IMG/VR virus record: IMGVR_UViG_2541047712_000002 | DNA length: 64,000 nt | Direction: 5' to 3' (one strand) | Origin: a virus | Taxonomy: Duplodnaviria; Heunggongvirae; Uroviricota; Caudoviricetes | Part shown: piece after piece, positions 6,001 through 9,000 of the stretch | How the letters are laid out: every line of letters begins with the position of its first letter | Numbering within the stretch: the first letter of the stretch is position 1 | Program-made: the position numbers

Positions 6001-9000
6001 GCAGTTTAGTCGCAACAACAAATCAGTTGAGGAAAAGATCCTTAGCGTAATCGGTCGATAATTATTAAGGCCATCAGCATTGGTGGCCTTAAATGACCAT
6101 CCTGTTTCCCGCAGGCTAAAAACACCAACCTCTTACCTCCAGGCAACCGACAAACCCACCTGTTCCCGTCCGGCTACCGCAACTTTCCACTTTGACGCCT
6201 TACTCGTACAACGATAATTAACACCAACAAGAAAACAATTTGTTATTTACGATAAGGAATTAATCATGAATTTTATCGCTACTGTAAACGCACCCGCACA
6301 TGGCAATATCGCTGTAACGTTCTCTGACATTGAAAAACGAGTACTTGGTGCATGGCGCGACAATGAGACGGTAGAACTGTCAGCACAAGAAAAATGCATT
6401 ATTGCACGCGACATCATTGGCAATCGTCGTTACTCGCGGGTATTTGAGAAAGCGTATGTGGTAAATTCTGGATTCGGAACGTTCGTCTTTCCGGTGCGCT
6501 CCGGGCGATTCTGCCAGTCCAAGCTGATTGAGTTCGCTACGCAGATTTCTGTCTGGATTAAAACTCAATCGTCGTTCAAATTTTCCGACGATGAAGCAGT
6601 ATCGCAGGGGATGCGGATCGCCAACAATGCGATTAAATGCAAAAACATTACGTATACCGCTGGCGTTGATACATGGAAACTGTTTTGCGCTAACTTTATG
6701 CTGAATGTATACGCAAGCAACCGCATCCACATCCTTGATGGCGTGTAACTGAGAAGAGGGCCAGAAACGGCCCTTTCTCTATAGCCACCAGCTGCCGCAG
6801 GGAAATTTTCAGAAACGGCGAGGAACGCATTCATGAGCCGACGGGAAACGGCCAGGATTTTTTCGGGAAACGGCTGCATTCGCCTTTATATAGAAAAAAC
6901 ATCGGGAAGCTGGTGGAATCCAACCAGCGGTTGTCGGACAGGTGAGCGGGGAAAATTATGATGACTTTCGTCGCCTGAGACATCCAGATTTCTTTCGTAG
7001 CGTAATCACATATGTGATTAAGTGGTGTGATTATGTGAAAAATCACGCGCACATAATACGCGAGCGGATACGGAACAAAACAAAATGCCGATCCGCGCCG
7101 ACAATTAAACGCGGATCACATAGCAAGAATAAAAGCCAATGATTAACCATACACCATAACGCAATATAACGCGTTTTAAGCGCGTTAATGTGTTAAGTAA
7201 TGGGTATATACTGGTAAGGATATAAAAGCTCGTCTGTGGCGTTATTTTGGCGCTTATTTTTATGTTGTTGGAGTGAGTCAAAGACAATAAAAAAGCGCCA
7301 TCATTGGCGCGTTATGGTGGAAGTATTGGAAACGAAAAAAGCGCCCATAGTGGGCGCTCGATTTTATTTATGTAAACTGATTTCAAATCCCATTTCTACA
7401 AACGCTTTTAACATTAAAAATATATCAGCGTCATTCACGTCTGCTTTTTTTCGCTCCTGGTCGCTCAATAAGTCAATTTTGCGCGTCGTTTCATCGATAA
7501 ACTCGACTGCGCGCCCATCGTAACCAGCGATCCCAGCGATGCGATTAACAAAATATTCATTGCGCACGTTAACGCCAGCGATAAGAATAAACATGATTAA
7601 GCTCCTTAAAAGCGCCCATAGTGGGCGCTATTGTTTTTATTTTTCTAAGTGAATATTAAAGCCAGCGTTTAAAAATTCTTGAAGCATTAAAGTTACATCA
7701 GCTTCATGGATTCCTGCGCGCGCTCTATGTTCTACGTCATTGATGTTTATTTTAAACGTTGTTTCGTCAACCACTTCAGAACTTAGAGCATACCCAGCTA
7801 AACCAGCAATATCATAAACAAGAGTATGATTGTTGATATTTACGCCAGAGATGAAAATAACCATGATTAAGCTCCTTTAAAGCGCCCATAGTGGGCGCTT
7901 GATTCCATTAATTACGCTTTGAAAGCATCAGCTAAATAATTGTAGAAATCATTTTTAATGAAGCGATATTGCTGAGTACCAGCTTTCGCGCTCCCAGCTC
8001 CTTTGACTTTTTCAACAAGTCCAAGACGTTCGCAAAGATTGATCAACTGGTTGGCTTGAGTATAGCCAGCGTCCAATTTAATTTCGCACGCTTTTTTAGC
8101 TTCATTCATTAAATCGAAAACAGCGCCATTGGTGAACGTGTCGATCTCGTCGTTAATCATATCGATTAAAGCGAATACACGAGATCCTGACATATCAGCG
8201 ACGGAATAAACGCATTTACCAGATTTAATTGATTTAACCAGATAAACCAGTTTTTCCAGTGAATAACTATTAGTCATAGCATCACGGAAAAATACTTCTG
8301 GCGCTTGTTTGCTTGCTTTAATCGCATAGTAGAAAACAGAGCATAATTTTTCGTCTTCTACAGCGTTTACGACGTTGTTGATGAAGTAAGCAAGTTTAGT
8401 GGTAGCAGCTTGCATATTTGCTTTGTCTGCTTTGGTGTGCGTACCATTTTTATAATGTTCATTATATGTTTGAGTTGCCAGATCTGCTTTTTCGCGCAGT
8501 TCATCGGATACAATGGAAGCAGCTTCAACGATGGATTTTTTAGAAATGATAATGTTAGCCATGATTTTATTCCTTAATGTAAATATTAAAATTTAACTCA
8601 AGAAAGAAAGTGTTTTGCACTCGTTCCTGATGCGTTCAATTATCGATACGTGAAAAAAGATTGCAAGTGTTTTTTTAAGTTTTTTTGCAGGGATGAAAGT
8701 CCTAGAAATAAAAGTTAGATCGTCGAAGGTGTTCCCTAAATAAATAATAAATTCCGGCTTTTGACCTTATATATTTATACGGGGGGAATTGAATGAGTGT
8801 TAAACGAATGGCATGTAAAATAATAACCGGACTTAGCCGGTTATTACCCTTATAGAAATTAAAACGGAAGGATTCGTTCAACCCAATCGAAGAAAATAAG
8901 TATTTTTCTACCGTCTTCCAACTTAAGTGTGACTAGACAGGCGTCAACGCCATCTGACGTTCCCTCAATTTCGCGACCGTCTGCCATGTAGACCCTTATA

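What the first reader, a model, noticed from the sequence alone, without database searches (positions are those of the whole stretch)
7295..7899. Tandemly duplicated small genes each preceded by an identical perfect hairpin AGCGCCCATAGTGGGCGCT
The 75- and 76-aa genes (7637-7864, 7364-7594) are paralogs whose 5' leaders, including hairpin, spacer and AAGGAG RBS, are conserved almost base for base while the coding sequences have diverged. The hairpin recurs a third time before the upstream gene and, with a T-run, ends the operon. This looks like leader-level control (RNase III-type processing or translational regulation) on a diversifying small-protein family.
Basis: seen in the sequence. Interest (0 to 1): 0.5.

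Follow-up and report, generated by a model that had tools for sequence, protein, structure and literature searches.

The report
Terminator hairpins bounding swappable small genes
Three identical hairpins in a phage-plasmid operon are copies of its transcription-terminator stem, and related elements have exchanged small genes of unknown function by recombining at them; this is a tidy local case of a known way phage genomes evolve, not a new control system.

Summary
Three identical 19-nt palindromes lie 270 and 271 nt apart, two 38-nt leaders match at 37/38, and the two small genes are 59% nt / 45% aa identical. All lie on the minus strand of an SSU5/pHCM2/pMT1-type phage-plasmid.

The interpretation needs turning round. 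The hairpin belongs to the 3' end of the upstream gene, not to the leader of the next one. Its core, GCGCCCA-N3-TGGGCGC, follows the stop codon of the 216-aa gene in 77 of 79 relatives, whatever comes next. The small genes keep the same ribosome-binding-site (RBS) leader with no hairpin when they follow a third gene, x67.

The terminal copy carries T5-7 in 91 of 93 unique loci and is a true terminator. Internal copies have a broken T tract, so I infer they are leaky.

The tandem pair is a rare recombinant (6/777 plasmid records; 6/237 E. coli genomes with the locus), not a young duplication. The 75-aa cassette differs at 0-3 of 225 nt across eight backgrounds whose flanking genes differ by up to 14%, and the breakpoints fall at the hairpins.

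RNase III processing is unlikely because the stem is only 8-9 bp. The nearest known analogue is the PeSL cassette of T4-like phages, which also carries a promoter. The proteins' function remains unknown.

The parts
8639..8666 (-). Promoter-like site (TTGCAA-16-GATAAT) upstream of the 216-aa gene. It lies downstream of the regulator gene's own terminator hairpin (8846-8815).
   Evidence: Consensus scan and the sequence itself. Predicted only.
7912..8562 (-). p216, first gene of the operon. phrog_1513, unknown function. Predicted N-terminal helical domain plus C-terminal winged-helix domain.
7881..7899 (-). Hairpin copy 1 (AGCGCCCACUAUGGGCGCU), 16 nt after the p216 stop. Followed by UUUAAAGGAG, a broken U tract.
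   Evidence: Terminator d-score -16 to -4. Same core at this position in 77/79 relatives.
7865..7880 (-). RBS leader 1 (TTAAAGGAGCTTAATC) ahead of the s75 ATG.
   Evidence: The same leader occurs without a hairpin after x67 in relatives.
7637..7864 (-). s75, a 75-aa phrog_1585 protein with a ferredoxin-like beta-alpha-beta-beta-alpha-alpha-beta fold. It forms the recently exchanged cassette together with hairpin 2.
   Evidence: AlphaFold2 pLDDT 92.6. Only generic fold matches. 98.7-100% nt identity across eight divergent backgrounds.
7611..7629 (-). Hairpin copy 2, 8 nt after the s75 stop. It is the recombination joint between the s75 3' flank (TAAAAACAAT) and the s76-type leader (TTTTAAGGAG).
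   Evidence: d-score -3 to +8.
7595..7610 (-). RBS leader 2 (TTTAAGGAGCTTAATC) ahead of the s76 ATG.
7364..7594 (-). s76, a 76-aa phrog_1585 paralogue. It is the type found singly in most E. coli relatives.
7330..7358 (-). Hairpin copy 3 plus U tract (UUUUUUCGUUU): the intrinsic terminator of the operon.
   Evidence: d-score +29 to +36. The terminal copy is followed by T5-7 in 91 of 93 unique loci.
7289..7310 (-). Back-up terminator GCGCCAAUGAUGGCGC plus U6. It resembles the main hairpin shortened by one G:C pair, with a 4-nt loop.
   Evidence: d-score +32. Conserved stem with a variable, flipping loop in relatives.

Best explanation
The window carries an SSU5/pHCM2/pMT1-type phage-plasmid. 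One transcription unit on the minus strand reads: promoter, p216 (a predicted winged-helix protein), hairpin, s75, hairpin, s76, hairpin plus U6, back-up terminator.

The hairpin is the family's conserved GC-rich terminator stem. It sits at the 3' end of each gene. The last copy keeps its U tract and ends transcription. In the two internal copies the U tract is cut short by the next gene's RBS leader. RNA polymerase should therefore mostly read through them. They would act at most as leaky attenuators or 3'-end protectors, giving graded expression down the operon.

The near-identical leaders do not reflect selection on a regulatory leader after a duplication. s75 and s76 are two old types of one small-protein family, and each normally occurs alone downstream of p216. 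They were brought into tandem by recombination within the repeated hairpin and RBS motifs (19 nt, plus 12-13 nt). The same short repeats account for gain and loss of a third small gene, x67, in relatives.

Shown: the anatomy, the family-wide conservation of the hairpin, the U-tract rule, the rarity of the tandem form, the chimeric junction, and the breakpoints at the hairpins.

Inferred: the read-through efficiency, any effect on mRNA stability, the recombination pathway and the order of events. The function of the proteins is unknown.
For: (1) Position and conservation. The 7-3-7 palindrome GCGCCCA-N3-TGGGCGC lies 13-23 nt after the p216 stop in 77 of 79 loci found through p216 homology alone (60-99% aa identity). 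One further locus has both arms intact around a 4-nt loop, and one has a mismatch in an arm. The figure is 90 of 93 unique regions overall, while flanking positions are only 40-90% conserved. Loci found through the exact 17-mer show it also next to p216 homologues of about 48% identity.

(2) U-tract rule. The last hairpin is followed by T5-7 in 91 of 93 unique loci. Internal hairpins are followed by TTTAAAGG, TAGTTTTA and similar broken tracts in all but 3 of 78 loci; those three belong to tandem terminator arrays. Terminator d-scores in the window: HP1 -16 to -4, HP2 -3 to +8, HP3 +29 to +36, back-up +32. The consensus scan calls only HP3 and the back-up hairpin as terminators on the gene strand.

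(3) The hairpin belongs to the upstream gene. The s75 stop is always followed by TAAAAACAAT plus hairpin, and the s76 stop by TAAAATCG plus hairpin. At x67-s75 and x67-s76 junctions the leader T6-8-AAGGAGCTTAATCATG is present with no hairpin.

(4) Variable architecture among 93 unique loci: p216 plus terminator only; with x67; with s76; with x67-s76; with x67-s75; with s75; and tandem terminator arrays of 44-nt period.

(5) Rarity. The s75-hairpin-s76 junction occurs in 6 of 777 PLSDB records that hold the locus, and in 6 of 237 complete E. coli genomes that carry p216. Partial matches to the junction query overlap only within the hairpin.

(6) Exchange as a unit. Among eight tandem loci s75 differs at 0-3 of 225 nt, while p216 is 86-98.5% and s76 92-100% identical. 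Window versus L225: 89 differences in p216, the last one 34 nt before hairpin 1; 1 difference between hairpins 1 and 2; 32 differences after hairpin 2, beginning at the first base past it.

(7) Within-type synonymous divergence of s75 and s76 (0.26 and 0.18) is far below that of p216 and x67 (0.86 and 0.82), as expected for recently spread cassettes.

(8) No promoter-like site lies in or between the three hairpins, and there is no Rfam match.
Against: No transcript-end data exist for this locus, so leaky read-through is inferred from sequence rules alone. The d-score formula was recalled from memory of d'Aubenton-Carafa et al. 1990.

In the one RNA-seq set found (phage-plasmid Cyrano in E. coli LF82; PMC9928086, supplementary file 2), the p216 and s76 homologues sit at the detection floor in lysogens. 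No polarity can be read from it.

The stem is invariant, with no compensatory change in about 90 unique loci, although p216 synonymous divergence averages 0.86. That is more than a terminator strictly needs. It leaves room for sequence-specific recognition or for frequent homogenising recombination. Against reading too much into this: of two control terminators in the same elements, one covaries and the other is equally invariant.

I did not observe a direct p216-hairpin-s75-terminator parent in E. coli, so the order of the recombination steps is unresolved.

Differential loss from an ancestral tandem cannot be formally excluded for the deep history. It does not explain the near-identity of s75 across divergent backgrounds.
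Confidence: 0.7

Rival explanations
1. The hairpin is a leader-level control element for each small gene: an RNase III-type processing site or a translational regulator, kept constant while the coding sequences diversify.
For: The leaders match at 37/38 against 59% in the coding sequence. The hairpin sits 4-5 nt upstream of a strong RBS. TTAAGGAGCTTAA is itself a weak palindrome that could place GGAG in a loop.
Against: The stem is only 8-9 bp, whereas typical RNase III substrates are about 20 bp (established knowledge). The RBS is unpaired in the minimum-energy and centroid folds of unit 1 and only weakly paired in unit 2. The same leader works without any hairpin after x67 in many relatives. 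The hairpin follows p216 even when nothing follows it (10 unique loci). The leader identity is explained by recombination.
Confidence: 0.08
2. The palindromes are DNA sites bound by a dimer of p216, the predicted winged-helix protein encoded just upstream. They would form an array like a centromere or a transcriptional roadblock. The terminator-like look would be secondary.
For: The 7-bp half-sites are invariant while the central 3 bp vary and flip. p216 has a C-terminal winged-helix domain with matches that include the plasmid-segregation protein TubR. Residues at the start of its putative recognition helix (YTQxNQL) are invariant down to 48% identity. Co-occurrence is strict. Distant relatives carry arrays of 2-3 copies at 44-47 nt spacing.
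Against: The U-tract rule shows the element is read as RNA: terminal copies almost always carry T5-7 and internal ones almost never do. The back-up hairpin has 6-4-6 geometry, which a fixed-spacing dimer would not accept, yet it shows the same invariant stem and flipping loop. One lineage has a bulged copy and another replaces the first copy with GCGCCAGAAATGGCGC. The p216 promoter holds no half-site, and outside the locus the 7-mer occurs at chance level. A control terminator is equally invariant.
Confidence: 0.1
3. A recent in-place tandem duplication of one small gene with its leader. The coding sequences then diverged quickly under diversifying selection while the leader was held constant.
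For: The regular 270/271-nt period and the paralogy.
Against: Each type occurs alone in many relatives at 84-100% aa identity to the window copy. The tandem form is rare. Within-type dN/dS is 0.17-0.20. The junction is a chimera of the s75 3' flank and the s76-type leader.
Confidence: 0.03
4. A dedicated cassette-capture system, with the hairpins acting like integron attC sites or IS200/IS605/REP-type hairpin targets for a site-specific enzyme.
For: An array of promoterless small ORFs, each followed by a palindrome, variable in number and content downstream of a conserved gene. Loop flips show the palindrome is active at DNA level.
Against: No integrase, transposase or RAYT gene is annotated within about 7 kb in relatives. 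The palindrome is 19 nt and perfect, not a 57-141-nt imperfect attC. Only three cassette types were seen, always at this one locus. x67 is gained and lost at the RBS repeat rather than at a hairpin. The 38 nt of shared sequence is enough for ordinary homologous or slipped-strand exchange.
Confidence: 0.03

Closest known systems
PeSL (promoter-early stem-loop) cassettes of T4-like phages (Arbiol et al. 2010, PMC2839356; Comeau et al. 2014, PMC4122927)
   Same: Short conserved regulatory motifs containing a terminator stem-loop flank small genes of unknown function. They serve as recombination joints for insertion, deletion and replacement between close relatives.
   Different: A PeSL includes a strong sigma-70 early promoter; here the motif is a stem-loop plus an RBS leader with no promoter. 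PeSLs are dispersed through hyperplastic regions of lytic T4-like myoviruses. This element is confined to one operon of a temperate siphovirus-type phage-plasmid. Mini-circle formation was not tested.
Intrinsic (Rho-independent) terminators, including tandem and bidirectional ones
   Same: [quoted passage not shown]
   Different: Copies 1 and 2 lack a full U tract and must be read through for s75 and s76 to be expressed. The stem sequence is unusually invariant across relatives.
Intercistronic stem-loops that set differential expression within operons (REP in malEFG, puf operon hairpins; established knowledge)
   Same: A stable hairpin just after a stop codon inside a polycistronic unit, placed to attenuate transcription or protect the upstream mRNA segment from 3' exonucleases.
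   Different: No decay or processing data exist here. The hairpin is not a dispersed genomic repeat like REP: there are three copies, all in this locus.
Integron gene cassettes with attC sites
   Same: Promoterless ORFs, each followed by a palindromic element, in an array of variable composition.
   Different: No integrase; a 19-nt perfect palindrome instead of a structured 57-141-nt attC; three cassette types only; some exchanges occur at the RBS repeat rather than the palindrome.
Small inversions of hairpin loops and quasipalindrome template switching (known from chloroplast DNA and E. coli mutagenesis; recalled from memory, not checked here)
   Same: Loops flip to their reverse complement while the stems stay intact.
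   Different: Here the flips recur in terminator hairpins of a phage-plasmid family. The mechanism was not tested.

Membership tests
Intrinsic terminator | GC-rich stem-loop (about 5-14 bp stem, 3-8 nt loop) | tested here: met
   All three copies: 8-9 bp stem, 3-nt loop, hairpin energy about -14 to -15 kcal/mol (-13.6 for the bare 19-mer).
Intrinsic terminator | Run of at least about 5 U directly 3' of the stem | tested here: met
   Met for copy 3 (U6) and the back-up hairpin (U6). The terminal copy has T5-7 in 91/93 relatives.
Intrinsic terminator (internal copies 1 and 2) | Run of at least about 5 U directly 3' of the stem | tested here: not met
   UUUAAAGGAG and UUUUAAGGAG. d-scores -16 to +8. 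Not called on the gene strand by the scan.
Intrinsic terminator | Measured 3' ends or termination efficiency | not testable with these tools
   The only RNA-seq found shows the homologous genes at the detection floor in a lysogen.
PeSL cassettes (T4-like phages) | Conserved stem-loop terminator flanking small ORFs | tested here: met
PeSL cassettes (T4-like phages) | Sigma-70 early promoter within the motif | tested here: not met
   Only 16 nt lie between hairpin and ATG. No promoter-like site in 7290-7900.
PeSL cassettes (T4-like phages) | Indel and replacement breakpoints between close relatives coincide with the motif | tested here: met
   Partial junction matches overlap only in the hairpin. 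Chimeric flanks. The divergence step falls at hairpins 1 and 2.
PeSL cassettes (T4-like phages) | Excised mini-circles formed by exchange between neighbouring motifs | not testable with these tools
   Needs PCR or sequencing of induced cultures.
RNase III processing site | Double-stranded stem of roughly two helical turns (about 20 bp) | tested here: not met
   8-9 bp stem. The criterion comes from established knowledge.
Integron attC cassette array | Adjacent intI integrase and imperfect 57-141-nt attC with R/L boxes | tested here: not met
   No integrase annotated within 4-7 kb on either side in three annotated relatives. The palindrome is 19 nt and perfect.
REP/BIME-type dispersed palindromes | Many copies dispersed in intergenic regions of the replicon | tested here: not met
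   Three copies in 64 kb, all in this operon. In viral contigs the 17-mer clusters at this one locus; about 10 further hits lie on contigs with no p216 homologue.
Operator or centromere palindrome of a winged-helix protein | Conserved half-sites, free centre, cognate DNA-binding protein, demonstrated binding | tested here: inconclusive
   Half-site pattern met. p216 has a predicted winged-helix domain. The U-tract rule, the 6-4-6 back-up variant and the absence of promoter sites argue against. Binding is not testable here.
phrog_1585 small proteins | Full-length profile match | tested here: met
   s75 E 4e-40 and s76 E 2e-37, each over the whole profile.

The most novel reading that the evidence does not exclude
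The invariant 7-3-7 palindrome is more than a terminator. It would be a cis-acting DNA site recognised by the winged-helix protein p216 encoded just upstream, for example as a roadblock, a centromere-like array, or a recombination hotspot bound by a protein. The hairpin-bounded small genes would then be cargo captured at that site, making the locus a small cassette-acquisition platform in phage-plasmids of enteric pathogens.
Probability: 0.1. Interest if true: 0.6.

Novelty: new variant of a known kind. Interest (0 to 1): 0.3.

Why it matters
SSU5-type phage-plasmids include pHCM2 of Salmonella Typhi, pMT1 of Yersinia pestis and pLF82/Cyrano of adherent-invasive E. coli, and they are common in clinical Enterobacteriaceae.

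This locus shows at base-pair resolution how such elements swap small accessory genes. A 19-nt terminator stem and a 12-13-nt RBS leader act as portable joints. It also gives a clean natural contrast between the same hairpin with and without a U tract, which could be used to measure read-through.

It extends the idea of regulatory motifs acting as recombination joints, described for T4-like lytic phages, to a temperate phage-plasmid and to a motif that carries no promoter. It does not reveal a new regulatory mechanism. The biological role of p216, x67, s75 and s76 remains open.

Tried and rejected
- Rfam scan of 6500-9500 at E up to 1: one chance-level match only.
- Pfam, NCBIfam and PADLOC for s75, s76 and p216, and NCBIfam and PADLOC for x67 and the upstream regulator: nothing significant.
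- Profile search of 1.84 billion representative proteins: 43 small relatives, none informative.
- Literature search for the protein accessions, PHROG numbers and locus tags: no papers. Search for pHCM2 RNA-seq: none.
- The Cyrano RNA-seq table: both genes at the detection floor, so no polarity estimate.
- The idea that the Yersinia 72-nt spacer is a remnant of x67: its interior scores no better than shuffled sequence (18 against a mean of 19).
- The idea that the 500-bp non-coding stretch downstream encodes a structured small RNA: fold z-score only -1.7.
- Positive selection on the small genes: dN/dS 0.17-0.20.
- A widespread mobile hairpin: hits to the 17-mer outside this locus lie on contigs with no p216 homologue, several of them GC-rich.
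- Stem invariance as proof of sequence-specific recognition: weakened by a control terminator that is equally invariant.
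Full report
**What is in the sequence.** The 19-mer AGCGCCCATAGTGGGCGCT occurs exactly three times in the 64-kb window, at 7340-7358, 7611-7629 and 7881-7899, and in none of 100 shuffles. All the genes here are on the minus strand. Read in the direction of transcription the unit is:

- a promoter-like site at 8666-8639;
- a 216-aa ORF, p216, at 8562-7912;
- hairpin 1;
- the 75-aa ORF, s75, at 7864-7637;
- hairpin 2;
- the 76-aa ORF, s76, at 7594-7364;
- hairpin 3 followed by T6;
- a different hairpin, GCGCCAATGATGGCGC plus T6, at 7310-7295.

As RNA each copy folds into an 8-9 bp stem with a 3-nt loop. 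The two 38-nt stretches from hairpin to ATG match at 37/38, while the coding sequences are 58.8% identical in nucleotides and 45% in protein.

**Where it comes from.** The region matches SSU5-like phage-plasmids: Escherichia phages PhiR41_1 and Cyrano, Salmonella phage SSU5, Klebsiella phages, and 777 PLSDB plasmids from Klebsiella, Escherichia, Enterobacter, Yersinia (pMT1-type), Salmonella and others. p216 and the s75-s76 junction are 100% identical to a plasmid contig of E. coli CH4804. In complete E. coli genomes p216 occurs in 237 of 5,426, always on plasmids.

**Comparative anatomy.** I fetched 229 related loci, ascertained in three ways: by homology to the small proteins, by the exact 17-mer and by homology to p216. 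They collapse to 93 unique regions downstream of p216. What follows p216 varies:

- hairpin-terminator only: 10 unique regions;
- hairpin, x67, terminator: more than 20. x67 is an unrelated 67-aa helical protein, phrog_6145;
- hairpin, s76, terminator: about 15;
- hairpin, x67, s76, terminator: 14;
- hairpin, x67, s75, terminator: 3;
- hairpin, spacer, s75, terminator: 2, the Yersinia pMT1 type;
- tandem terminator modules of 44-47 nt period in distant clades;
- the window's hairpin-s75-hairpin-s76-terminator arrangement: only two viral contigs besides the window.

The s75-hairpin-s76 junction occurs in 6 of 777 PLSDB records and 6 of 237 E. coli genomes that carry the locus.

**The hairpin belongs to the 3' end of the upstream gene.**

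- In the 79 usable loci found through p216 alone, 77 have GCGCCCA-N3-TGGGCGC 13-23 nt after the p216 stop. One more has a 4-nt loop and one has a single mismatch in an arm.
- Flanking positions are only 40-90% conserved.
- The s75 stop is always followed by TAAAAACAAT plus hairpin, and the s76 stop by TAAAATCG plus hairpin.
- Where s75 or s76 follows x67, the leader T6-8-AAGGAGCTTAATCATG is present with no hairpin at all.

The hairpin and the RBS leader are therefore two separate modules that happen to abut in the window.

**Terminator or not.** The last hairpin of the unit is followed by T5-7 in 91 of 93 unique regions; the other two have CTTTTTT. A hairpin that is followed by a gene instead has TTTAAAGG, TAGTTTTA, TTTTAAGG and the like. 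A d-score of the d'Aubenton-Carafa type (formula recalled from memory) gives:

| Hairpin | d-score |
|---|---|
| Hairpin 1 | -16 to -4 |
| Hairpin 2 | -3 to +8 |
| Hairpin 3 | +29 to +36 |
| Back-up hairpin | +32 |

The consensus scan calls only the last two on the gene strand. I infer that copy 3 and the back-up hairpin terminate, and that copies 1 and 2 are read through with at most partial termination. They could also stabilise the upstream mRNA segment.

No transcript-end data were found. In LF82/Cyrano RNA-seq the homologues CYRAN_113 and CYRAN_112 are at the detection floor in lysogens. This suggests the unit is repressed in the plasmid state, but it says nothing about polarity (PMC9928086 supplementary file 2).

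**Why the leaders are identical.** The junction in the window is a chimera. To the left of hairpin 2 is the s75-specific 3' flank. To the right is the TTTTAAGGAG leader that precedes s76 where it directly follows the p216 hairpin. Partial matches to a junction query end or begin inside the hairpin.

Among eight tandem elements s75 differs at 0-3 of 225 nt, while p216 is 86-98.5% and s76 92-100% identical. Comparing the window with L225:

- 89 differences in p216, the last one 34 nt before hairpin 1;
- 1 difference between the hairpins;
- 32 differences after hairpin 2, starting at the first base past it.

Identities of p216 and s76 are also uncoupled among single-copy elements. Within-type synonymous divergence is 0.18-0.26 for s76 and s75 against 0.82-0.86 for x67 and p216.

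The simplest reading is repeated exchange at the hairpin and RBS repeats, with the s75 cassette spreading recently into several backgrounds. The 1-nt difference between the two window leaders fits their separate histories. TTTAAAGGAGCTT is the leader that precedes x67 in E. coli relatives, so the leader upstream of s75 could have arisen by deletion of x67 between the two AAGGAGCTT repeats. That step is inference.

**Is the stem's invariance special?** No stem position varies in 90 unique regions, although p216 synonymous divergence averages 0.86. The loop varies, and it flips to its reverse complement repeatedly: CTA/TAG, TTA/TAA and CAA/TTG. The back-up hairpin does the same with ATGA/TCAT, TTGT/ACAA and TTGA/TCAA. 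This points to palindrome activity at DNA level. Template switching is my inference; it was not tested.

- the U-tract rule shows the element is read as RNA;
- the back-up hairpin has different geometry (6-4-6) yet behaves the same way;
- distant lineages carry a bulged copy or a GAAA-loop replacement at the first position;
- there are no half-sites in the p216 promoter, and occurrence elsewhere in the window is at chance level;
- of two control terminators in the same elements, one covaries (GGGCC/GGCCC to GGGGC/GCCCC) but the other is just as invariant.

**Comparison with known systems.** Copy 3 and the back-up hairpin are ordinary intrinsic terminators. The use of a conserved terminator stem-loop as a joint for swapping small genes works like the PeSL cassettes of T4-like phages (PMC2839356, PMC4122927). 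It is not a member of that family, because there is no promoter in the motif and the host genome type differs. RNase III sites, integron attC sites and REP elements each fail a defining feature (see the membership table).

**Verdict.** This is a real and neatly organised feature, largely explained by known principles, with modest novelty as a promoter-less, hairpin-plus-RBS variant of recombination-joint motifs in a temperate phage-plasmid family. Interest 0.3.

Noticed in passing
Relatives, e.g. L004 4237, L009 3930, L016 3740, L020 4238 (7-3-7 hairpin); window 7295-7310 versus L010 and L014 (back-up hairpin): Hairpin loops flip to their reverse complement between otherwise near-identical elements: CTA/TAG, TTA/TAA and CAA/TTG in the main hairpin, and ATGA/TCAT, TTGT/ACAA and TTGA/TCAA in the back-up terminator. 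The stems stay intact. This suggests recurrent palindrome-templated small inversions.
   Followed up: partly
window 6780-7295: About 500 bp of non-coding DNA lies between two convergent units. It holds four minus-strand terminator-like hairpins (6 sites found against 0.8 expected), a perfect 18-bp palindrome TAATCACATATGTGATTA at 7003-7020, and TGTGATTA repeats. There is no Rfam match, and the fold z-score is only -1.7. It could be an operator, an origin or a small-RNA region.
   Followed up: partly
window 7523-7540 (s76 residues 19-24, IAGIAG): The IAG codon repeat varies in copy number among homologues, which run from 70 to 79 aa. This looks like slippage in ATCGCTGG repeats (alignment A3).
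   Followed up: no
Proteins P0013 and P0025: Mosaic proteins join an s75-type N-terminus to an s76-type remainder, and the reverse. Recombination therefore also occurs inside the small genes.
   Followed up: no
L143 5735-5938 (SSU5_119); L003 3777-3980: The 67-aa helical protein x67 (phrog_6145) is annotated in SSU5 and in PHROGs as 'MIT family metal ion transporter / CorA'. That is implausible for a protein of this size.
   Followed up: partly
L094 1498-1602; L060 8081-8141; L066 11796-11859: Distant relatives (p216 48-62% identical) carry two or three tandem copies of the whole terminator module (hairpin, T6 and about 20 nt) at 44-47 nt spacing.
   Followed up: partly
window 6757-6780 and 8815-8846: Control terminators in the same elements behave differently. 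The stem after the convergent 160-aa gene covaries among relatives (GGGCC/GGCCC to GGGGC/GCCCC). The stem after the regulator gene is invariant.
   Followed up: yes
L006 3949-4000 (Yersinia pestis pMT1 type): A spacer of about 50 nt (72 nt from hairpin start to ATG) separates the p216 hairpin from s75. It starts with what looks like a decayed RBS leader (TTATTCAAAAGATCTT). Its interior shows no significant similarity to x67.
   Followed up: partly
window 7868-7880 and 7598-7610: The leader TTAAGGAGCTTAA is itself a 5-3-5 palindrome that could place GGAG in the loop of a weak AU-rich hairpin. It appears in the minimum-energy fold of unit 2 only.
   Followed up: no
L224 3995-4932 (Cyrano CYRAN_113 and CYRAN_112): The p216 and s76 homologues are at the RNA-seq detection floor in LF82 lysogens. 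The neighbouring regulator CYRAN_114 and gene CYRAN_117 are expressed (PMC9928086 supplementary file 2). The unit may be a lytic or induced one.
   Followed up: partly
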